Positions 3,624-31,316 of a stretch of 32,000 nucleotides of DNA are shown here, piece by piece. Position 1 is the stretch's first letter, and the number at the start of each line of letters is the position of its first letter. Source of the stretch: Candidatus Saccharimonadota bacterium (GTDB lineage: Bacteria > Patescibacteriota > Gracilibacteria > Absconditabacterales > Absconditicoccaceae); contig OZ246420.1 in the NCBI GenBank assembly GCA_965231145.1, positions 210,001 through 242,000 of the forward strand. The letters run 5' to 3'. Both the position numbers and the translations under genes were made by a program. The notes under the pieces were generated by a model. The model saw nothing but the letters and a program-made list of their open reading frames with translations. It ran no database searches and was not told the DNA's origin.

Positions 3624-3638
3624 TAGAGGCTTTCATTG

Positions 3639-3669
3639 AAAAAGTATAGCAGATCGCTATACTTTTTTT
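3639..3669 (+). terminator. Rho-independent terminator ending the 3-gene hypothetical operon
   Basis: Stem AGTATAGC (3643-3650) pairs with GCTATACT (3656-3663), loop AGATC, followed by T6 (3664-3669). Confidence 0.8.
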
Positions 3670-3688: not shown

Positions 3689-4126
3689 ATGAGTGAATTC
3701 TCCGCTTTAGTCCAAAGCTATTATCAAAATCCTGTAAACAATCGCGCCATGCCAGACGCGACAATTTCTCGTCATGAAGGAAATTCACTCTGCTGAGACG
3801 ACCTCACAGTTTATCTCAAGATAAACGCTAATTCAGAATTCAAAATTCAGAATTCAAAATTAATTATTGAAGATCGAAGTTATGATGGTATGCCGAGCAT
3901 GATTACGCAGGCTGCAGCAAGTTTCTTTTCCGAATTAATTATTGGTAAGACTCTCGAAGAAGTATTACACATGAATGAGCATACGATGAAAGACAATGAT
4001 TTCATTGTCTCGCCAAGACGCAGAAGAGCGTCGGTAATTGCTATCCTTGCCACAAGGAATGCGATACATGCTTATCTGAAAGATGGCAAAGAGGATAGGT
4101 TTGAGGACTTACTTGTTGAGCAATAA
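3689..4126 (+). CDS. IscU/SufU/NifU-like Fe-S scaffold homolog, degenerate (only the first conserved Cys retained)
   Basis: ATG 3689 to TAA 4124-4126. The N-terminus reads YYQNPVNNRAM...GNSLC-G-DDLTVYLKI, where the Gly of the family C-G-D motif is TGA 3794-3796. The C-terminal part (ORF-track 3890..4126) resembles the scaffold helix region (ITQAAASFFSELIIGKTLEE). The positions of the 2nd and 3rd Cys read GMPSM and RRASV. Confidence 0.6.
3830..3864 (+). repeat. Tandem heptamer array AATTCAG AATTCAA AATTCAG AATTCAA AATTAAT inside the IscU-like ORF
   Basis: Read directly from the sequence. It is a 14-nt unit repeated 2.5 times, 7-nt phased, and contains two EcoRI-type GAATTC palindromes. It encodes NSEFKIQNSKLII, which looks like extra sequence relative to the usual CGD...GC spacing of the family. 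Confidence 0.85.
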
Positions 4127-4150: not shown

Positions 4151-4655
4151 AGAGTTCTAATAAATTGTACACGATATTTCGTATTTTTTCGTTCTCCTTT
4201 ATCTTTCTTGCTATATTGTGAGCAAGTACGGTCTCTACATCAGAAAGAACCTCTTTAGGAGTAAAAAATAAATACTTTTCTAGTTTCTCCCTTAAAACAG
4301 TAGGATTGTTATACGCATCTAACACTTCCTTCAGTAATGGATTATTATGACTTGCTACGGCAAATAATTTCATTCTAAGCTCTTCATTTATTATTTGTCC
4401 ATCTTCTGTAGTAGCAGATATAATGCTTGTAATGCTAAGAAAGGAAGAGTATGAAATTATTGGAAAACAAGATAATAATTTTGTTGCAGACGCAGCCCCT
4501 AAACATGCATTCGCTTTCTCAAAGGACAAGATATAAGATGATTTTACTCCGGTTTTTTTAGTTACATCTTGATAAGCATAGTTGTGTGTTTCGCGTATTT
4601 TACGAAACAGTTCGCCCAGAGCTACTCCTAAAGGATGCTTTTCTTTGTTTTTCAT
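4149..4655 (-). CDS. Hypothetical protein with a possible XRE-like helix-turn-helix N-terminus
   Basis: Uninterrupted 168-aa ORF ending TAA (4149-4151). The N-terminal LGELFRKIRETHNYAYQDVTKKTGVKSSYILSFEKA resembles the HTH_3/XRE pattern. The remainder is unrecognised. Confidence 0.45.
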   Translation of the reverse strand: MKNKEKHPLGVALGELFRKIRETHNYAYQDVTKKTGVKSSYILSFEKANACLGAASATKLLSCFPIISYSSFLSITSIISATTEDGQIINEELRMKLFAVASHNNPLLKEVLDAYNNPTVLREKLEKYLFFTPKEVLSDVETVLAHNIARKIKENEKIRNIVYNLLEL

Positions 4656-11024: not shown

Positions 11025-11553
11025 ACTGAAGAAAATCGTATATCATGTCGAAGACGGTTTGTTCTTTTTCTTCTATGGCTTTTCGTTCCGTCTTCGAGAA
11101 CTCATGGAGCACATAGTCGACGACTTCGTCCTTTGTAGCTGGGCGGCCAACCCCAATGCGAATACGTGAAAATGTATTTGTGCCGAGATGAGCGATTAAG
11201 CTTTTCAATCCATTATGCCCCGCATGGCCGCCTCCCACCTTGAGCTGGATGAGTGCAGAGGCGATATCTATCTCGTCATGGAGGACAAGGATATCTTCAG
11301 GCTTAATCTTATAGAACTTCGCTATTTTCCCAACCGTCTCGCCAGAGTTATTCATGTAGGTGAGTGGCTTACAAAGTAGTATTTCTCATCCCTCATCCCT
11401 TATCCCTTTTGCGATCTCAGCATTCCATTCTTTATTCTTTGTCCATTTCATCTTCTCCCACTTCGCAAATGCATCCAGCATCAAAAAGCCCGCATTGTGG
11501 CGGGTATTTTCATACTTATCTCCTGGGTTTCATAATCCGACGATTAATTTCAT
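11023..11553 (-). CDS. pth: Peptidyl-tRNA hydrolase (176 aa)
   Basis: The N-terminus [23 protein letters not shown] appears only when TGA (11530-11532) is read as Gly. The C-terminal part is ORF-track 11023..11355 (YMNNSGETV...HAGHNGLKS). A second TGA lies at 11386-11388. The gene ends TAA. Confidence 0.93.
11386..11406 (+). repeat. Tandem heptamers TCATCCC TCATCCC TTATCCC inside pth
   Basis: Read directly. The array is 21 nt and in frame, encoding G-I-R-D-E-G-G on the minus strand. The first TCA is the complement of a TGA-Gly codon. Confidence 0.8.
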
Positions 11554-14754: not shown

Positions 14755-16542
14755 ATGAGACATATATTTTCTATGCATTTCACTGGTATCACATATCTTG
14801 ACGACCATCTTTCTTTTGTTGCTCAGCGCCTTCCTGGAGAGCAGCTTTTTGTCGTAGGATGAGCGGTTCGTGATATCATTCTTGGTGTTAACATGACGCC
14901 TCAAGATGTCGATATGACTCTTGCAGCAGACCCTGCTCATATTTTTCATACATTGGAAAAAGCAAAAACGGAGGACACATCAGTTTTCTGGACGGAGAAA
15001 TTTGGGACGGTGACACTTATTAACTGAAAGAGCAAAGAGCAAAGAGCAGAATTAAATAACGAGGAATCAGAAATAATCCAAAATCAAGAAACGTGAACTC
15101 AATATATTTATGAGATGACTCCTTTTCGTGAGGAGAGTGGTTATGCAGACAATCGTCATCCAGACTCTATTAAGCGATCTCAGTCACTTATTGCAGATGC
15201 GAAGCGCAGAGATTTTACCATCAATTGCATCTACTATTCTAAATTTGAACTTCTAGATTCTCAATTAAATAAGGAAGCATCATTGACTAGCAACCAGCAG
15301 CTAGCAACTAGCGACAAAGTATGATATGACCTTGATCTATTGAGTAAAAAAGGTTGGTCTTATATACAAGAAATATCATTATTCATTTTACAAAAACATG
15401 AACTCATAGATGAGTTCTTTGCCGGAGGCAAATTTCAGGAAGAAGTATTTCGTTCGTGGGTAGAGAAAAATGATATGAATGTCTGAGCAGAAGTTCGTTT
15501 TATTGTAGATCCATTTTTGTGAATACAGGATTTGATGAACGGAACGCTTCGCTGTGTGGGAGAACCAGAACATAGATTTCATGAGGATGCATTACGCATT
15601 CTTCGCGGAGTAAGACTTGTGAATATCCTCAATCAGAAAATAGTTGGAAGAAATATTGATTTTGAGAAAGAGACATGGAGGTCGATGCAGAAACTCTCGC
15701 ATTTAGTTTCGTGACTTGCGAAAGAGCGTTTGCATCAGGAGATAGTGAAAGTGTTTACAGAGAAAAATCCATTTGGATGGGTTGCGTTGATTGATGAGCT
15801 TGGATTGCTGCCAGTGCTTTTTCCTGCATTACATAAGAATAAACATGATGATCAGCCGGTTCGTTATCATCCTTTTGATACGTATGCCCATACGTTACTC
15901 ACTCTCCGGCATTTGCAGAAACTCAACGATAATTACCTTGTGAAGCTTGGTATGCTCTATCATGATGTTGGAAAGAAAGATCAGTATGCAGAGTATGCAA
16001 AGGCAACAACGAAAGAAGAGATGCAGGAAATTCATAGTAGCCCAGCAAATCATGTGATATGTGGACCGATCTATGCGGAAGAGGATTTCCGTGCGTTAGG
16101 TTTTTCAAATAAGGAGATAGAAGAAATCGCGCTCTATGTTGCCCAGCATATGAGGCCATGACAGATTCTTATGGCACGCTCAGATAACCAGATCAAGAGA
16201 ATGCGTCAAATGTTGTCAGAACTCGGTTATGAGAAAGCGAAAAATCTGCTGGATATCACACTTGCGGATAGACAGTGACAGTTCAATCCACTCCAATCAA
16301 ATGAAGTCAATGCTGTTTCGTGACTCTATGAAATACTTGAGAAGCTTCACAATGAAGAAGGACAGTTTACAATGCATGATCTTGCGATCGATGGTAATGA
16401 TGTTATGGAGGTGTTGAAGATGGAGCCAGGACCTGAGGTGAAGAAAAAATTGCAGATGGCATTTGATCGGGTGTTGTCAGATATCGCACAGAGAAATAAC
16501 AAAGAGACTATACTCGCTCATTTACATTCGCTTGATAACTAA
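14755..16542 (+). CDS. cca: CCA-adding enzyme / tRNA nucleotidyltransferase with an HD domain and large lineage-specific insertions (595 aa)
   Basis: Motifs seen: LFVVG-G-AVRD (TGA 14860-14862), DVDM, RRDFTIN, EDALRILRGVR, and the HD motif YHPFD...HDVGK. About ten in-frame TGAs join pieces 15115.., 15532.. and 15730... The gene ends TAA 16540-16542. An alternative start is ATG 14773. Confidence 0.88.
15027..15047 (+). repeat. Three perfect tandem heptamers AAAGAGC inside cca
   Basis: Read directly. The array is 21 nt, encodes KSKEQRA, and lies within a segment that looks inserted between the FGT and E-x-T-x-F-R parts of the head domain. Confidence 0.9.
15286..15313 (+). repeat. Four tandem heptamers ACTAGCA ACCAGCA GCTAGCA ACTAGCG inside cca
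   Basis: Read directly. It shares GCAACTAGC with the hairpin elements at 23609 and 28981. It encodes TSNQQLATS within the ~95-aa insertion between RRDFTIN and DPF-x-G. Confidence 0.85.
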
Positions 16543-19244: not shown

Positions 19245-19631
19245 ATGGTTAACATATTTGAGCGTATTATAGCACGTGAGATACCGGCAAAGATCGTCTA
19301 TGAAGATGAGAAAGTGCTAGCATTTCTTGATATCAACCCCGTACAGAAGTGACATATGTTGCTTATTACAAAACAGCCATATCAGTGGATACAGGATGTC
19401 GATGATGAGACGCTGGCATATACATTTGTTATCGCAAAGAAGCTGATTCGTCATATCAAAGAAAAGCTTGGAGTAGAATATGTGCACGTAGTGGTCGAAT
19501 GAGTCCAAGTGCCCCATTTCCATGTGCATCTTATACCATCGATGATAGAGCATAAAAATGCTCAATGGGAGCATCATGCGTACGAAGAAGGCGAAATGGA
19601 GGTTTATCAACAAAAATTATTATTCGGATAA
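19245..19631 (+). CDS. HIT-family (histidine triad) hydrolase (128 aa)
   Basis: FERIIAREIPAKIVYEDEKVLAFLDINPVQK-G-HMLLI (TGA 19350-19352) and VE-G-VQVPHFHVHLIP (TGA 19500-19502) match the HIT fold and the H-x-H-x-H triad. The gene ends TAA 19629-19631. No ORF of 60 aa or more is visible under the standard code. Confidence 0.9.
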
Positions 19632-19633
19632 TA

Positions 19634-19703
19634 ATGAGGAGTGTTGAATGTTAAATGATACATACAATATTGTACTCTTCATTCAACATTTCACATTTAA
19701 AAT
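19634..19703. repeat. Heptamer-phased imperfect palindrome downstream of the HIT gene
   Basis: The left arm is ATGAGGA GTGTTGA ATGTTAA ATGATAC. The core is the perfect palindrome TACAATATTGTA (19663-19674). The right arm is TCTTCAT TCAACAT TTCACAT TTAAAAT. The best stem, TGTTGAATG (19642-19650) with CATTCAACA (19680-19688), is displaced by exactly 7 nt from the core symmetry axis. Confidence 0.8.
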
Positions 19704-19730
19704 TATTTTTTAGTAAGTAAGTGTATTAAG

Positions 19731-20295: not shown

Positions 20296-21885
20296 ATGTC
20301 TAAGAAATTAATAGTTACCCTCTGCTCTTTGATTTTTGCTCTTTGAGTTGTATCTGCAGCTGAGCCTGCAAGCATCACTATCACTATGCTTCCGGTCAAT
20401 GCTACAGCTCCGAAGAAAAAGCAGGACATGAGACCTATTTCGATGAGGGATTTTTTCACGCAGTATTGTAATACGGTAGGATATGGTGTGCCACCTGTCT
20501 ACACACAGATTTCGCTTAAGATCCAGTGAGTAGCTCGTGAGGATGCGCTCTATGGAGCGCTTCAGAAGTGTGTGTATCTCGGTTTTATCCCAAATAGTAC
20601 CGTGAGTTATAAGTGGGGATCGTCGGTATCACCTAAATTTATTAATATTCTGATCAGTAAAAATATTCAGATCGATCCGGATATCAATGAAGATAATACA
20701 ACGATCACGCGTAAGGATTTGAATAATCTCATCAACTCACTGCCGAACTACCAGATGCTTATGAATGTGGGTGCAAAGAGTCGCTGGGGTTCAAATCCGA
20801 ACTATCTCAGTCCGGTGATCAGAGCGGAGGGATTTGGCATATTAAGCCAAGTGTATCAGTCGTTTAAATCTGACTACTGGTCGGGTGATGAGGTAACAGA
20901 CAACGTGCTTATGCAGGGAGCTATCAAGTGAATGACCGATTCGCTTGGAGATATTCATACGGAATATTTCCCTCCGACACAAGCGCAGCAGTTCAGTGAC
21001 CAGCTCAATGGTAATTTTGAGGGTATCGGTGGGTACCTTGATATCCGTTCGTCGGGTGATGTGATTATTACTTCTGTGATAAAGGATTCTCCAGCACAAA
21101 AAGCAGGACTTCTTCCGCAGGATCGTATCATAAAAATAGATGATTATACTATACAGCCAACTGACATCCTTGCTACTATTATTGCAAAGATTAAGTGACC
21201 CGCAGGCACTGTGGTGACTCTTACTATCCAGCGTAATGGCACCAATATAGTTATACCCGTGACAAGAGCGAAGATTACAATCAGTATGATCGACTATGAG
21301 ATAAAGAGTACAACGCCGATCGTGAAAATTCATACATTTGGCCGGGGAGTCGCTGCATCATGGATTGGTATCCTGAAACAGCATACAGCGCAGATCAGTA
21401 ATTCATCAAAGATCATCATAGATCTGAGAGACAATCCGGGAGGAAGTCTCCAGGAAGTAGCTGATATGCTTAGTGACTTTATTCCAGAGAATGAACCAGT
21501 CGTCGTGACTCGTTCAAGATATGATGAAGAAGTGGTGGTCTCAGCAGGAAGAAAGCTTATCGATTTTTCACATAAGAAGATCGTTATCCTTGTTAACTCA
21601 TCGACTGCTTCGGCATCGGAGATTATGGCAGGAACACTGAAAGACTACTTCCCGAAAAATGTTGTTATCATCGGTGAAACTACCTACTGAAAGTGATCAG
21701 TCCAATATCTTCAATCATTTGCTGATAACAGCAGTTTCAAGATGACGATCGCTCACTGGTACACAGGAAAGACAAAGAAGGCTATTGAGCATGTTGGTAT
21801 CAAGCCAGATCTCTTCGTAGAACTCGATCTCGATCAGCTCAAGAATGGAACTGATACACAGCTGCAAGCAGCGCTTAATAACTAA
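20296..21885 (+). CDS. S41 family C-terminal processing peptidase (Ctp/Prc-like) with signal peptide, N-terminal extension and PDZ domain (529 aa)
   Basis: The signal peptide is MSKKLIVTLCSLIFAL-G-VVSA. The PDZ-like segment is FEGIGGYL...VIKDSPAQKAGLLPQDRIIKIDD. The catalytic region is IIDLRDNPGGSL...NSSTASASEIMAG...GETTY-G-K-G-SVQ, with TGAs at 21688-21690 and 21694-21696. Pieces 20572.., 20932.. and 21211.. share one frame. The gene ends TAA 21883-21885. Confidence 0.9.
20323..20346 (+). repeat. Heptamer-phased TGCTCTT TGATTTT TGCTCTT TGA in the ctp signal-peptide codons
   Basis: TGCTCTTTGA occurs twice, 14 nt apart (20323 and 20337). It contains GCTCTTT, the complement of the AAAGAGC word seen at 15027-15047 and 21885-21905. 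Confidence 0.75.
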
Positions 21886-21999
21886 AAGAGCGGAGAGCAA
21901 AGAGCATAAAAAACATTATCATTATATAAAAAACCTGCACTAGTGCAGGTTTTTTTACAATCCTTCATTTTGCTCTTTTATCTCTCACCTTTGCTCTAT
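21885..21999. repeat. Outer heptamer arms (AAAGAGC family) bracketing a canonical terminator
   Basis: The left arm is AAAGAGC GGAGAGC AAAGAGC (21885-21905). The right arm is GCTCTTT TATCTCT CACCTTT GCTCTAT (21972-21999). AAAGAGC (21899-21905) is the exact complement of GCTCTTT (21972-21978). Confidence 0.75.
21926..21957. terminator. Bidirectional rho-independent terminator between convergent genes
   Basis: ACCTGCAC (21933-21940) pairs with GTGCAGGT (21943-21950). A6 lies upstream and T7 downstream. Confidence 0.85.
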
Positions 22000-23587: not shown

Positions 23588-23660
23588 GCGAGTTGCAGCT
23601 GGCAGATGGCAACTAGCAAGTAGCATGCTATCTGCGAGTTGCTGCCTGCTAGTTGCAAGT
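23588..23660. repeat. Heptamer-phased imperfect palindrome (GCAnnTn words) downstream of mscL
   Basis: The sequence reads GCGAGTT GCAGCTG GCAGATG GCAACTA GCAAGTA GCATGCT, then TGCTATC TGCGAGT TGCTGCC TGCTAGT TGCAAGT. It is symmetric about GCATGC (23623-23628). Of 35 opposed positions I count 26 Watson-Crick, 5 G-T and 4 mismatches. Confidence 0.85.
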
Positions 23661-25677: not shown

Positions 25678-28600
25678 ATGACCTTGTGTACTGATCAGCT
25701 AATACGTACGTTACAAGCAAACGACGGCCTCAAAGAGGACGTAATTTCTGGCCGTGTGACGATTGGTGATCTGGCAACGAAAGCGTGGTGAAGCGCTGGT
25801 AAACCGATCTGTTATAAAGAATTTTGAGAAATTTATAAGATACGTGACTATGTACAGTCTGTCAATCTCGATGCTGTGATAGATGCAGGTGTGCAGGTAG
25901 ATACTGGTGTGAAACTGACAGGTTCTACGAGTGCAGGATTTTCTTTTCCATGGTTTCAGTGAGAGCAGTTCAGAGAGTATCTGAATATGGCTGGCTTGGT
26001 TGTCGGTGGAATGATTGCTATCCTCATAGCATGGAAACTTATCAGAGGACTGTTTATTTTCCTGTACGATGTGCTCAATGCATGGCGTACTGTTTATCTT
26101 CGTGTCATCCTTCCGCGTGGTGATGATAAGATCTCGCGTGAACAAGATAAGGACGTGGCAAAAGATATGAAGGAAAAACTGTCACGTATGGGGCAGGTGT
26201 ATGAGGCACTTCATAAGCTTGGACATTCATCACTTCGTGATAGTACGATGAATTTTCTTTTCCGTAAGCCAAAGGTAACTACTATCTGGCAGTATGAAAA
26301 AGGGCTTCTTCACTGTATCATAGGTGTCTATCCTGAATATAAGAAGATCGTAGAGTCGGCTGTCGCAGCTCAGTTTCCGGACGCATCGATAGAAAGTCTC
26401 GATAAGAGACCAGCGTTTTTCTCGAAGAAGCATTCAAATATTGCTGTCATGGAGACGGAGAGAAGTTCGATCTATCCGATCAAGACATTTAAACAAATGT
26501 CAGACGATCCGATCAATGATCTTATCGATACGATGGGGAAGATGTCGACAGAGGATACGTTTAGTATCGTCATGCCGCTCAAACCAGCAAGCGATGCGTT
26601 CAATAAAAAGGCTAAGAAATGGGCAACAGGTCTGTATAGAAGAGATGAATTTTATGTCAAATGAGGTCATACGTATCGATGGAAATGGCTTATTCCGCCC
26701 TACCGGATATGGGCATTGATCGTTTTCCTGATTAAGTGAGTCAAGAAAAAGGGTGAGCATGATACGATGCAATCGGGTGGAAAAGATATGGTGCGTATGA
26801 CTAAGGCAGAAGAAGATGCTCTCAATATCATGGGTGAAGAAGCCGGAAAACACGCTTTTGAAACAGCTATTTTTCTTATCTCTTCATCAGACGATGCAGA
26901 TCGTGCCGTACAAAATATCAATAACATGGAAGCGGTCTTTACGATCTATCGCGATGAGTTCAACAATGAATTAGATAATAATAACCTTAAGACTGACGCA
27001 CTTGGTTTCTTCTTTAAGCCGCTTTGGAAGTTCGCTGCAAGATTTTGACTGTGTCATTTCTTCTTCAAGAAGACGATCATGACTCCAAATGCACTGACAT
27101 CGCTTTTCCATATGCCCGATGGTATCTATAATCGTTCGCCTATTATAAAGTGGCTCGACTATAAGATGCTTGCAGCGCCGGATAATCTTCCGAAGCTCAA
27201 AGATCCAACAGATTATATCATTACTGGAGTTATCGCTGAGCAATATATGGGTGGTAAGATCGAGAAACTATTTGCTGAAAACGAAAGCTGGGCAGTAGGT
27301 TCGAAGCAGGAAGAAGTGGTAGAGCTTCTCGACTATGTTCCTGGATATAAGCCGCAGCTAGGTGAGACTATTGTAGAAACAACTGACGGTAAAAAACATA
27401 TTGAAAGAAGGGTAAATGTAACGAAAAAGGGTTTGCGTGTCTTTAAAGACGGAGTACTTCTTGGTGTTAATGTGTATCGTAATACCTATACGCCGATCTA
27501 TATGCTGAAGAAAGATAGAACAAGACATTACTATATCGTCGGAAAATCAGGTACAGGTAAGTCGGTATTTATCGATTCGCTTGCACGTCAGGATATCTGG
27601 GCTGGTAATGGTTGTTGTGTGATCGATCCGCATGGAGACCTTGTGGAAAGCATATTGCAATACATACCAAAGGAGAGAGCAAAAGATGTTGTGTACTTTG
27701 ATGCCGGAAATGAAGAGCGTCCGATGGGTCTCAATCTCTATGAGATCTCGTCTGTTGACCAGTCAGATCGTATTGTAAACGATGCGACGGAAATGTTCTT
27801 GAAGATGTTCGGTCCGGAAATCTTCGGTCCACGTATCCAGGAGTACTTTAAGTATGGTTCCCTGACACTGCTTGAAGACTTGGAAGATCCGGCAACGCTT
27901 ATTGACGTGCCAAGACTCTTTACGGATGAGACATATAGAGACTACAAAGTGAAGAAGGTTAAAAATCCGGTGGTGAGAAACTTCTGGGAAAAGACATATA
28001 ATGCGATTGGTGATCGTGAAAAGCAAGAAATCATCCCATACTTCACATCAAAATTCGTATCATTTATTACTAACTCATTGATCCGTAATATCATCGGACA
28101 AACGAAGTCAGCGTTTAACTTTAGACAGATTATGGACGAAGGAAAAATCCTTCTCGTTAATCTCTCGAAGGGTAAGATCGGTGAGCTCAATGCACAGCTT
28201 CTTGGTATGATCCTTGTGTCGAACATTTATAATGCAGCGATGTCTCGTCAGGATATCGATGAAGATAAGCGTAGAGATTTCTATCTGTACGTCGACGAGT
28301 TCCAGAACTTTGTAACCAATACCTTTGCAGACATCTTGTCAGAAGCTCGTAAGTATAAGCTGTCGCTTATCATGGCGCATCAGTACATCGCGCAGCTTGA
28401 TGGTGGAGGAAGTAACAATATCGGTGAATCATCCGGCGGTAAAAAGTCAGTGAAAGATGCTGTGTTCGGTAACGTGGGTACGATGCAATCATTTAAGATC
28501 GGTGCACCCGATGCAGAGTTCCTCGAGAAAGAGTATGCTCCTGTACTGAGTGCTCAGGACATTGTATGAATAGCGAACTATAAAGCATATATTAAACTGA

Positions 28601-28971
28601 ACATCAATAACTCAACATCGCGTGTCTTCAGTATGAATGCGATCGGAACAACCGACTATCAGAACAAGAAAGCAGCTGCTATATTGCAAGAATACAGCGC
28701 GAAAAAGTATGGTCGTAAGAAAGAGTTCGTTGAAGCTGAGATACAAGCAAGGCTTGGGATACTTACCTCAGATCCTACGGAACCAAATTTACAAAGCACA
28801 GATTCATCTGCCGCGGTAGATCAAAATTCACAATCAAATACGGAGTGATCATCAATAACTCCAGCGACTAATAATCCAGAGCCAGTAACAAATATTCCAA
28901 CAGATACTGCTCCTGCGAGTACAGAGAGTACGCCGCCGGCAGAGGCGCCATCTGCGTCAGCAAACATATAA
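25678..28971 (+). CDS. TraD/TrwB/VirD4-like (T4SS coupling-protein family) P-loop ATPase with a long N-terminal membrane/unknown region and a low-complexity tail (up to 1097 aa)
   Basis: Pieces 25987.., 26767.., 27079.. and 28633.. share one frame, joined only by TGA (26662, 26737, 27046, 28567 and 28846). Walker A GKSGTGKS lies at 27541-27564, followed by VIDPHGDL. Walker B YLYVDEFQN lies at 28282-28308, followed by SEARKYKLSLIMAHQY. A TM segment MAGLVVGGMIAILIAWKLI lies at 25987. The start is uncertain (ATG 25678 or ATG 25987). The gene ends TAA 28969-28971. Confidence 0.75.
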
Positions 28972-28980
28972 TACTATAAA

Positions 28981-29052
28981 GCAACTAGCAAGTAGCAGTT
29001 GGCAGGCAGCAAAAGAATGCTACTTGCTATATGCCAGTTGCTAGCTGCTTTT
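28981..29052 (+). repeat. Heptamer-phased hairpin (GCAnnTn words) with T-run; likely terminator of the ATPase gene
   Basis: The sequence reads GCAACTA GCAAGTA GCAGTTG GCAGGCA GCAAAAG, then AA, then TGCTACT TGCTATA TGCCAGT TGCTAGC TGCTTTT. A perfect 11-bp stem pairs AGCAAGTAGCA (28987-28997) with TGCTACTTGCT (29018-29028). The first 17 nt are identical to 23609-23625. Confidence 0.85.
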
Positions 29053-29091
29053 TCTTATTGAAACATGTGGCTCTTTCTCTAAGATATCGGT

Positions 29092-31273: not shown

Positions 31274-31308
31274 AATTACGAATTAATAATGACGAATTAC
31301 GAATGAAA
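31274..31308. repeat. Tandem heptamer array AATTACG AATTAAT AATGACG AATTACG AATGAAA (no inverted partner)
   Basis: Read directly. It fills the 45-nt spacer between the BI-1-like gene stop (31317) and the next minus-strand start (31271). Confidence 0.75.
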
Positions 31309-31316
31309 TAATGAAT

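What the first reader, a model, noticed from the sequence alone, without database searches (positions are those of the whole stretch)
28981..29052. Second GCAnnTn heptamer hairpin shares an exact 17-mer with the mscL element 5.3 kb away
GCAACTAGCAAGTAGCA at 28981-28997 is identical to 23609-23625. The surrounding words differ, so this is not a simple duplicated segment. Five GCAnnnn words face five TGCnnnn words. An 11-bp perfect stem pairs 28987-28997 with 29018-29028. An alternative register pairs GCAGC (29006-29010) with GCTGC (29044-29048). A T-run follows, so it very likely terminates the TraD-like ATPase gene. The related CTAGCA array inside cca (15286-15313) shares GCAACTAGC. A shared core within diverging periodic arms suggests a common origin (a dispersed element) or convergent generation by the same mechanism.
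Basis: seen in the sequence. Interest (0 to 1): 0.7.

Follow-up and report, generated by a model that had tools for sequence, protein, structure and literature searches.

The report
Heptamer-repeat hairpin serving as gene terminator
The hairpin after the ATPase gene is two facing arrays of 7-base repeats (GCA plus four loosely fixed bases), a known but unexplained kind of bacterial simple repeat, sitting where related genomes have an ordinary transcription terminator; the 17-base match to a second hairpin follows from the shared repeat grammar.

Summary
The exact 17-mer, the five GCAnnnn words facing five nnnnTGC words, the 11-bp perfect stem, the alternative register and the T-run are all present. 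Four independent assemblies carry identical sequence.

The organism reads TGA as glycine (code 25, Gracilibacteria-like), so the ATPase ORF really does end 9 nt before the hairpin.

Hairpins A (28981-29048) and B (23588-23656) are inverted pairs of heterogeneous heptamer arrays with the grammar G-C-A-R-N-T-R. Period 7 is over-represented in this window (5 arrays against 0.03 expected) and in 737 kb of related genomes.

- Random inverted arrays drawn from this grammar fold as well as the real hairpins (-35.3 ± 6.6 kcal/mol against -33.4 and -35.4).
- Such random arrays share a 17-mer in 12-36% of trials, so the 17-mer is not evidence for a conserved mobile core.

At the same site, five related contigs (four lineages) carry ordinary short terminators. 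Hairpin A has A-tract, stem and T-tract anatomy, so it most likely terminates the ATPase gene. Hairpin B has no T-run.

Inverted heptamer arrays are already described in Xanthomonas (PMC4692102). This is a new member of a known, mechanistically unexplained kind. Interest is modest.

The parts
25678..28971 (+). VirD4/TraD-like ATPase gene (DUF8128 N-terminal part plus T4SS coupling-protein-like ATPase). It holds 8 in-frame TGA (Gly) codons. Stop codon TAA at 28969-28971.
   Evidence: Code-25 translation. Homologues are named type IV secretion DNA-binding or conjugative-transfer proteins in Gracilibacteria and Peregrinibacteria, with Pfam PF26449, PF10412, PF02534 and PF12696.
28978..28980 (+). 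A-tract (AAA) that pairs with the start of the T-tract, as in the other terminators of this genome.
   Evidence: MFE structure pairs AAAGCA with UGCUUU.
28981..29015 (+). 5' arm of hairpin A: GCAACTA GCAAGTA GCAGTTG GCAGGCA GCAAAAG.
29018..29048 (+). 3' arm of hairpin A: TGCTACT TGCTATA TGCCAGT TGCTAGC TGC. This is the inverted array; read on the other strand it is GCAGCTA GCAACTG GCATATA GCAAGTA GCA.
   Evidence: All five GCA triplets pair with all five UGC triplets in the MFE fold.
29049..29059 (+). T-tract TTTTTCTTATT (8 of 11 T) directly after the stem.
23588..23656 (.). Hairpin B, an inverted pair of the same heptamer grammar: GCGAGTT GCAGCTG GCAGATG GCAACTA GCAAGTA GCA | TGC TATC TGC GAGT TGC TGCC TGC TAGT TGC. 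Its centre is a perfect 10-nt palindrome, TAGCATGCTA. It starts 5 nt after the mscL stop codon (- strand) and lies upstream of the next gene's promoter-like site. No T-run follows on either strand.
   Evidence: Promoter-like site 23537-23509.
15283..15317 (+). Direct array (no inverted partner) of the same words inside cca: (TTG)ACTA GCAACCA GCAGCTA GCAACTA GCG. It is translated in frame as part of a lineage-specific-looking insertion (…LTSNQQLATSD…).
19630..19712 (+). Third heptamer-periodic palindrome, with a different word family (nnnAATG facing CATTnnn). It starts at the stop codon of a HIT-family gene (19247-19631) and is followed by TTTTTT.
   Evidence: I1: 44-nt arms, 73% complementary.. 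(fold -25.1 kcal/mol, z = -3.85)..

Best explanation
Hairpin A is an inverted pair of heterogeneous heptanucleotide repeat arrays. Each unit is G-C-A-R-N-T-R. This places it in the class of heptamer simple-sequence repeats that is over-represented in many prokaryotes.

How the hairpin forms: GCA and the T at position 6 are fixed, and positions 4 and 7 are purines. Any two such arrays placed head to head will therefore fold, in any register that is a multiple of 7. GCA pairs with UGC, T pairs with A, and each R faces a Y as a Watson-Crick, G:U or A·C contact.

What it does: the hairpin sits 9 nt after the ATPase stop codon, is flanked by AAA and by TTTTTCTTATT, and occupies the slot where related genomes carry a short GC stem plus T-run. 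It therefore acts as the Rho-independent terminator of the ATPase gene (inferred, not shown).

How it arose: the arrays most likely grew in place by replication slippage of 7-nt units on both arms of an ancestral short terminator stem. Template switching between the arms may have kept the two sides similar (inferred).

Hairpin B is a second, independent product of the same grammar. The shared 17-mer is two consecutive common spacer words, not a conserved core.
For: Period 7 is specifically enriched.
- The window has 5 arrays against 0.03 expected, and no more than 2 for any other period. TRF gives period 7 in 8 of 18 rows.
- In 737 kb of related loci there are 55 period-7 arrays, against 20 for period 8 and 11 each for periods 10 and 11.

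The grammar over 19 units is G19, C19, A18, A10/G7, any base, T15, A11/G5.

Random inverted arrays drawn from that grammar fold at -35.3 ± 6.6 kcal/mol. The observed values are A+ -33.4, A- -35.4, B+ -35.4 and B- -24.7. P(shared 17-mer) is 0.12-0.36.

The site is a terminator slot in relatives.
- L243: GGTAGC-AGATA-GCTATCC followed by T6.
- L251: CCCCC-TTAT-GGGGG followed by T7.
- L252/L253 (same lineage): CTTCGGGT…ACCCGGAG followed by T7.
- L244: an ordinary terminator after an extra small ORF.
- Many of the 71 more distant relatives that could be examined also have short terminators there, and none has a heptamer hairpin.

This genome ends most genes with A-tract, short stem and T-tract terminators. 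A second heptamer-periodic palindrome plus T6 follows the HIT gene.

Literature support:
- Xanthomonas has heterogeneous (GGGANTN)n heptamers, conserved at positions 1-4 and 6, with 70-75 convergent inverted pairs per genome. That paper also cites the polymerase-slippage hypothesis for heptamer excess (PMC4692102).
- Heptamer repeats are described in Beggiatoaceae, cyanobacteria and Bacteroidetes (PMC4679880).

The same architecture was seen here in unrelated phyla.
Against: - Termination was not measured. A 68-nt, roughly 30-bp imperfect stem is far longer than the usual terminator stem in this genome.
- Hairpin B has the same build but no T-run, so the repeat architecture does not itself imply termination.
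- GCA is invariant while positions 4, 5 and 7 vary freely. Neutral decay of a slippage product would not give this pattern (34 substitutions; chi-square about 29 on 6 df, computed by hand from the counts). This points to selection, or to a sequence-specific generating process that slippage alone does not explain. A caveat applies: the arrays were partly ascertained by their GCA periodicity.
- No copy-number polymorphism, the hallmark of active slippage, was seen among four assemblies. Three of them are from neighbouring run accessions and probably represent one strain.
- A and B read in the direction of their upstream genes both begin TAA-TACT-…-GCAACTAGCA. This slightly favours common descent.
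Confidence: 0.6

Rival explanations
1. A and B are two diverged copies of one small dispersed palindromic element (REP- or MITE-like). The element inserts just downstream of stop codons in a fixed orientation and is mobilised by a transposase encoded elsewhere in the genome.
For: - Read in the direction of the upstream gene, A(+) and B(-) align colinearly. Spacer identity is 20/32, against 12/32 in the opposite orientation (hand comparison of the units I2).
- Both start 5-9 nt after a TAA stop with TAA-TACT…GCAACTAGCA.
- Both are absent from the orthologous sites of all relatives.
- Some inverted heptamer arrays in other organisms flank a conserved centre that occurs in either orientation, for example four copies in L054.
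Against: - The 62% spacer identity is only about 1.2 SD above the roughly 52% that the grammar gives.
- There are no target-site duplications. The flanks are TATAAA / TTTTTC for A and TACTT / AACTC for B.
- There is no conserved centre. The loops are AAAGAA and none.
- Only two copies were found in about 52 kb of this genome, and none in about 60 kb of close relatives or 737 kb of distant relatives.
- No transposase lies in the sequence available.
- The exact 17-mer has only two chance hits in IMG/VR.
Confidence: 0.2
2. The 7-nt periodic GCA (or UAG/UGC) words are binding sites for a multimeric RNA- or ssDNA-binding protein that reads one unit per subunit. Known parallels are HutP on UAG-N4-UAG-N4-UAG and cold-shock proteins on heptamer repeats. 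On this view the hairpin is a regulated structure, such as an antiterminator/terminator switch or an mRNA-stability element.
For: - Conservation is strongly position-specific: GCA is invariant and T is present in 15 of 19 units, while the other positions vary. This is what a read-out of fixed contacts would give.
- The A 5' arm contains CUAGCAAGUAGCAGUUG, that is UAG-N4-UAG-N4-UUG.
- CspB is reported to bind heptamer direct repeats with one protein per heptamer (PMC4679880).
- Heptamer arrays sit 8-60 nt upstream of the start codon of the same ATPase gene in six distant relatives, each with different words.
Against: - No candidate protein was identified.
- The words differ between arrays at equivalent places in relatives, so no single specificity explains them.
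- Arrays of the same words also lie inside coding sequence (cca 15283-15317).
- The HutP resemblance comes from memory and involves only two UAGs.
Confidence: 0.12
3. The match is chance similarity of two low-complexity regions, or an assembly artefact.
For: Given the grammar, the 17-mer itself is not improbable.
Against: - The grammar itself is far beyond chance. GCA-N4-GCA-N4-GCA occurs 14 times against 0.25 expected.
- The folds exceed shuffles.
- The sequence is identical in four independent assemblies.
Confidence: 0.02

Closest known systems
Heterogeneous heptameric SSRs of Xanthomonas, (GGGANTN)n, and Nostoc, GGGGA(C/T)T (Rehm et al. 2015, PMC4692102)
   Same: - Tandem 7-nt units with a fixed core (positions 1-3/4 and 6) and variable positions 5 and 7.
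- Usually about 4 units long and mostly intergenic.
- Very often found as two convergent arrays on opposite strands that can form a stem-loop (70-75 such pairs per Xanthomonas genome).
[quoted passage not shown]
   Different: - The core here is GCA rather than a G-tract, so no G-quadruplex is possible.
- The host is a code-25 Gracilibacteria-like bacterium.
- The two arrays abut (loop of 0-6 nt) and, for A, carry a T-tract in a terminator slot.
- Copy density appears much lower: 2-3 in about 52 kb.
Cyanobacterial STRR heptamers and TAACTGA repeats of Beggiatoaceae, cyanobacteria and Bacteroidetes (MacGregor 2015, PMC4679880; STRR from own knowledge, Mazel et al. 1990)
   Same: - Short intergenic arrays of 7-nt units, often mixed with related heptamers.
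- Scattered across phyla, with origin and function unknown.
- Sometimes found inside ORFs.
   Different: - Those arrays are mostly direct and lie just upstream of start codons.
- Only one inverted pair was reported in the BOGUAY genome.
- The words are different.
Rho-independent (intrinsic) terminators
   Same: - Position directly after a stop codon.
- A-tract, stem-loop and T-tract anatomy.
- Orthologous sites in relatives carry classical terminators.
   Different: - The stem is about 30 bp, periodic and imperfect, with alternative registers. The usual stem in this genome is 7-12 bp and GC-rich.
- Hairpin B, of the same build, lacks the T-tract.
REP/BIME elements and other small palindromic dispersed repeats
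   Same: - Imperfect palindromes at the 3' ends of genes.
- Lineage-specific presence.
- Can act as terminators or as mRNA stabilisers.
   Different: - No evidence of high copy number.
- No RAYT-type transposase in the sequence available.
- Internal 7-nt periodicity is not a REP feature.
- The two copies resemble each other no more than the word grammar predicts.

Membership tests
Prokaryotic heptanucleotide SSR arrays (STRR-like or heterogeneous heptamers) | Head-to-tail units of 7 nt, at least 3 units | tested here: met
   Five units in each arm of A and 4-6 in each arm of B. TRF and autocorrelation detect period 7.
Prokaryotic heptanucleotide SSR arrays (STRR-like or heterogeneous heptamers) | Period 7 over-represented relative to other non-codon periods in the genome or clade | tested here: met
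   Window: 5 arrays against 0.03 expected, other periods 2 or fewer. Related loci: 55 arrays at period 7, against 20 at period 8, 11 at period 10 and 11 at period 11.
Prokaryotic heptanucleotide SSR arrays (STRR-like or heterogeneous heptamers) | Heterogeneous units with a fixed core and variable positions | tested here: met
   Column counts G19, C19, A18, R17, N, T15, R16 of 19. This parallels GGGANTN in PMC4692102.
Prokaryotic heptanucleotide SSR arrays (STRR-like or heterogeneous heptamers) | Convergent inverted pairs able to form stem-loops | tested here: met
   A and B fold at -33 to -35 kcal/mol. Such pairs are described in Xanthomonas and were seen here in other phyla.
Prokaryotic heptanucleotide SSR arrays (STRR-like or heterogeneous heptamers) | Unit-number variation between strains (slippage) | tested here: inconclusive
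   Sequence is identical in four assemblies, three of which are probably one strain. Relatives at 75-82% nt identity lack the arrays altogether.
Rho-independent terminator | Stem-loop immediately downstream of a stop codon on the coding strand | tested here: met
   A starts 9 nt after TAA at 28969-28971. Fold is -38.3 kcal/mol, z = -4.96.
Rho-independent terminator | U-rich tract directly after the stem | tested here: met
   TTTTTCTTATT at 29049-29059 for A. Not met for B on either strand.
Rho-independent terminator | Terminator at the same site in related genomes | tested here: met
   L243, L244, L251 and L252/L253 carry short GC stems plus T6-7 after the ATPase stop. Many of the 71 distant relatives examined do as well.
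Rho-independent terminator | Transcripts end at the T-tract | not testable with these tools
   No transcript data are available for this organism.
MITE | Terminal inverted repeats flanked by a target-site duplication | tested here: not met
   Flanks are TACTATAAA / TTTTTCTTA for A and TAATACTT / AACTCGCAA for B (read on the - strand). There is no direct repeat.
REP/BIME | Many dispersed copies of one palindromic unit in the genome | tested here: inconclusive
   Two GCA-type hairpins lie in about 52 kb of this genome (window plus L246 and L249). The complete genome could not be reached, because the genome-contig scan was saturated by unrelated heptamer arrays.
REP/BIME | Associated RAYT (IS200/IS605-like) transposase | not tested
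   None of the gene calls in L001, L246, L248 or L249 carries a transposase domain, but this covers only about 52 kb.

The most novel reading that the evidence does not exclude
The G-C-A-R-N-T-R grammar may not be a passive slippage product. It may instead be written or read by a sequence-specific activity that works in 7-nt steps, and this would explain several observations together:
- GCA stays invariant while the two arms are otherwise no more complementary than chance.
- Arrays start exactly at stop codons, or at a TGA codon: 19630, 21886, 23656, 28981 and 15028.
- 21-nt (3 x 7) blocks can land in frame inside genes (cca, the IscU-like gene, Pth).
- Arrays with different words hold the same intergenic position in distant relatives.
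- The same inverted-array architecture is found across many phyla.

If true, heptamer arrays would be the footprint of an undescribed, widespread repeat-generating or repeat-binding system.
Probability: 0.12. Interest if true: 0.7.

Novelty: new member of a known kind. Interest (0 to 1): 0.33.

Why it matters
The result shows that a striking exact repeat between two hairpins can be a by-product of a simple repeat grammar. It also gives a clear comparative case of a heptamer-repeat hairpin occupying the place of an ordinary terminator in a small-genome, code-25 bacterium.

Heptamer repeats are the most over-represented long simple repeats in prokaryotes, yet their origin and function are still unexplained. 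Lineages like this one may help. Close relatives lack the arrays, and the arrays sit in well-defined slots: after stop codons, in 5' leaders, and in frame within genes. Such material could be used to date and dissect how the arrays arise.

For annotation there are two practical points. The window must be translated with code 25. Terminator scans with short-stem rules miss these hairpins (one search did not list A).

Tried and rejected
- **Rfam and tRNA/tmRNA scans.** Rfam at gathering thresholds found nothing, and neither did ARAGORN.
- **Generic (GCAnnnn)x5 pattern scans.** The hits were still useful, because they showed how widespread the architecture is.
- **Exact 17-mer in IMG/VR.** There were two hits, both ordinary non-repeat contexts.
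- **Strand asymmetry of hairpin B.** B folds at -35.4 kcal/mol on the + strand and -24.7 on the - strand. I considered this as a sign of an antisense RNA. I rejected it as not significant: 5 G:U against 2 A·C contacts, and no T-run on either strand.
- **DNA uptake sequence idea.** This was prompted by the neighbouring DNA-translocase-like ATPase. I rejected it because copy density is far too low.
- **Assembly artefact.** Rejected on four independent assemblies.
- **Automatic detector for adjacent inverted arrays.** It was insensitive. It missed pairs that are plain by eye in L257, L281, L287 and L333, so no clade-wide count of inverted pairs is given.
- **In-place descent of hairpin A from an L243-like terminator.** The two share GTAGCAG. 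This is a 7-mer match with roughly 0.15 chance probability, so it remains only a hint.

Full report
**1. The observation**

The finding is accurate at the stated coordinates.
- GCAACTAGCAAGTAGCA occurs at 28981-28997 and at 23609-23625.
- Five GCA triplets (28981 to 29009, step 7) face five TGC triplets (29018 to 29046, step 7).
- 28987-28997 is the exact complement of 29018-29028.
- GCAGC at 29006-29010 pairs with GCTGC at 29044-29048.
- TTTTTCTTATT follows.
- GCA-N4-GCA-N4-GCA occurs 14 times in the window against 0.25 expected.
- The region folds at -38.3 kcal/mol, z = -4.96.

Hairpin B is identical in contigs from four sequencing runs, and hairpin A in contigs from two of them. Neither is an assembly artefact.

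**2. Context: the genetic code**

The window uses TGA as a sense codon.
- Opening TGA raises summed ORF length from 7204 to 18329 aa.
- TGA sits at invariant glycines: TrxB IIGgGPAG, cca VVGgAVRD and Pth GLgNPG.

This is genetic code 25, as in Gracilibacteria and Absconditabacteria. Homologues of the ATPase are annotated in Gracilibacteria, Peregrinibacteria and Peribacteria MAGs. Under this code the VirD4/TraD-like ATPase ORF runs 25678-28971 and stops 9 nt before hairpin A. Hairpin B begins 5 nt after the stop codon of mscL on the minus strand, and lies upstream of a promoter-like site for the next gene.

**3. The hairpins are built from heptamer arrays**

Period-7 tandem arrays are specifically enriched in the window.
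- There are 5 against 0.03 expected at a 16/21 autocorrelation threshold, and no other period exceeds 2.
- 8 of 18 TRF rows have period 7.

The 19 units of the four arms follow one grammar: G19, C19, A18, then A10/G7, any base, T15, A11/G5.

The same words form a direct array inside cca (15283-15317). Other word families form arrays at 3830, 11385, 15027, 20323, 21886 and 31274.

A third heptamer-periodic palindrome lies at 19630-19707 (nnnAATG facing CATTnnn). It starts at the stop codon of a HIT gene and is followed by T6.

**4. The shared 17-mer and the complementarity of the arms**

I drew random arrays from the observed grammar and placed them head to head.
- They fold at -35.3 ± 6.6 kcal/mol. 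The real values are -33.4 (A+), -35.4 (A-), -35.4 (B+) and -24.7 (B-).
- In register, the spacers of the two arms of each hairpin are only 8/16 identical as words. This is what the grammar alone gives (units).
- Two hairpins built at random from the grammar share an exact GCA-xxxx-GCA-xxxx-GCA 17-mer in 12% of trials (column model) or 36% (word model).

The 17-mer therefore carries no information beyond the grammar, and the hairpins are not maintained as precise palindromes. What is conserved is the periodic GCA..T. pattern.

Outside this organism the 17-mer is not a family marker. It has two non-array chance hits in IMG/VR and none in any related locus.

**5. Comparison with relatives**

Six contigs from related species were recovered through the ATPase protein (75-82% nt identity in the ATPase): L243, L244, L245, L251 and L252/L253.

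After the ATPase stop, all of them except L245 (which shows no hairpin there) carry ordinary terminators:
- GGTAGC-AGATA-GCTATCC plus T6 (L243);
- CCCCC-TTAT-GGGGG plus T7 (L251);
- CTTCGGGT…ACCCGGAG plus T7 (L252);
- a standard terminator after an extra small ORF (L244).

None has hairpin B downstream of mscL. None has any period-7 array at the threshold used.

Eighty more distant loci (737 kb) again show period 7 as the commonest non-codon period. At the ATPase 3' end they show many ordinary terminators and no heptamer hairpin.

Within the window, most genes end with A-tract, short GC stem and T-tract terminators. Hairpin A has the same anatomy (AAA, stem, T-tract) with a much longer periodic stem.

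This is the basis for calling A the terminator of the ATPase gene. The step from anatomy and synteny to function is an inference. Hairpin B occupies a comparable slot but lacks a T-run, so its function is open.

**6. One dispersed element, or two products of one process?**

Points for common descent:
- Read in the direction of the upstream gene, A and B align colinearly. Spacer identity is 20/32, against 12/32 in the other orientation.
- Both begin TAA-TACT…GCAACTAGCA.
- Both are lineage-specific.

Points against:
- The identity is about 1.2 SD above the grammar expectation.
- There is no target-site duplication and no conserved centre.
- There are only two copies in about 52 kb of this genome, including 20 kb fetched beyond the window.
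- No transposase is in reach.

I put the dispersed-element reading at 0.2. I put in-place growth from a shared repeat grammar, with terminator function for A, at 0.6.

A weak hint for in-place growth comes from terminators built on TAGC-AGATN-GCTA. These occur at the orthologous site in L243 and at 3627-3660 in the window. They contain the same TAGCA and GATAGC words.

**7. What stays unexplained**

Pure slippage followed by neutral decay should spread substitutions over all seven positions. Here 0, 0, 1, 9, 12, 4 and 8 substitutions fall on positions 1 to 7 (chi-square about 29, 6 df, hand-computed). Some ascertainment bias applies.

Either selection or a sequence-specific generating or reading process keeps GCA and the T fixed. 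Selection could act on pairing in any register, or on a protein contact every 7 nt. This is the basis of the protein-binding rival (0.12) and of the novel case.

**8. Comparison with what is known**

Heptamer SSRs are reported as the most over-represented long SSR class in many prokaryotes, and polymerase slippage has been proposed as the cause (cited in PMC4679880 and PMC4692102).

Rehm et al. describe heterogeneous (GGGANTN)n arrays in Xanthomonas with the same positional pattern of fixed and free positions. They report 70-75 convergent inverted pairs per genome that could form stem-loops.

MacGregor describes TAACTGA arrays in Beggiatoaceae, cyanobacteria and Bacteroidetes, and notes that CspB binds heptamer repeats.

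In the loci fetched in passing I saw the same inverted-array architecture in Acidobacteriota, Bacteroidota, Planctomycetota, Chloroflexota, other candidate-phyla-radiation (CPR) lineages and viral contigs. About half of 120 GCA-type arrays were heterogeneous, and purines were preferred at positions 4 and 7.

The finding is thus a new member of a known, mechanistically unexplained kind. It is not a new kind of element.

**9. Verdict**

- Observation: confirmed.
- Interpretation: partly supported. The terminator reading is very likely for A. The shared core is not evidence of a mobile element.
- Novelty: new member of a known kind.
- Interest: 0.33.

Noticed in passing
whole window; e.g. 24554 (TrxB GxGxxG), cca VVGgAVRD, Pth GLgNPG: TGA is read as glycine (genetic code 25). 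It lies at invariant Gly positions of several housekeeping proteins. Standard-code ORF calls fragment nearly every gene.
   Followed up: yes
window 15022-15050 (+), 21880-21908 (+), 20321-20349 (-): Three copies of a second heptamer family, (AAGAGCA)x3, share a left flank AACTNA and a right end (G/T)A. One is in frame in cca right after a TGA codon. One lies directly after the TAA stop of the S41 protease. One is inverted in that protease's signal-peptide codons. In relative L243 the Asn-stop AACTAA exists without the array, so the 21 nt look inserted after a pre-existing AACTAA.
   Followed up: partly
   Followed up: partly
window 19630-19712: A third heptamer-periodic palindrome (AATAATG AGGAGTG TTGAATG TTAAATG … CATTCAA CATTTCA CATTTAA) starts at the stop codon of a HIT-family gene and is followed by TTTTTT. 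It is probably that gene's terminator.
   Followed up: partly
window 3830-3861 (IscU-like gene), 11385-11407 (Pth), 15027-15048 and 15283-15317 (cca), 20323-20345 (protease signal peptide): Heptamer arrays lie inside coding sequence and are translated in frame. In cca they fall within stretches that look like insertions between conserved motifs. I did not check whether orthologues lack them.
   Followed up: no
L257 4470-4552, L266 4558-4588, L275 4518-4547, L277 4566-4595, L278 4560-4597, L279 4539-4571: In six distant relatives a heptamer array lies 8-60 nt upstream of the start codon of the same ATPase gene, each with different words. In L257 it is an inverted pair, (GTATTGG)x3 … (CCAATAA)n. 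The position is retained while the sequence is not.
   Followed up: partly
L054 (IMG/VR contig) 1640-1721, 4274-4363 and two more; also L129, L161, L180, L208, L211, L046: Inverted heptamer arrays flank a non-repeat centre in unrelated phyla. In L054 four intergenic copies share the centre GTGCACGGAGCACTTCCC in either orientation, which looks like a small dispersed element with heptamer-array arms.
   Followed up: no
window 31274-31314; L275 1803-1834, L279 1019-1059, L287 1265-1295: The array AATTACG AATTAAT AATGACG AATTACG lies between convergent genes. Similar AATAACG and AATAATG words form arrays in distant relatives.
   Followed up: no
window 3627-3660; L243 11270-11310: Short terminators are built on TAGC-AGATN-GCTA (GTATAGC-AGATC-GCTATAC and GGTAGC-AGATA-GCTATCC). 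They contain the same TAGCA and GATAGC words as the long hairpins, and may be seeds of the arrays.
   Followed up: no
L278, L279, L281, L287 (about 1000-2700): Arrays of TTCACTR and AATTCTG heptamers recur at matching positions in four related lake-metagenome contigs. In that lineage, arrays and their word family therefore persist across species.
   Followed up: no
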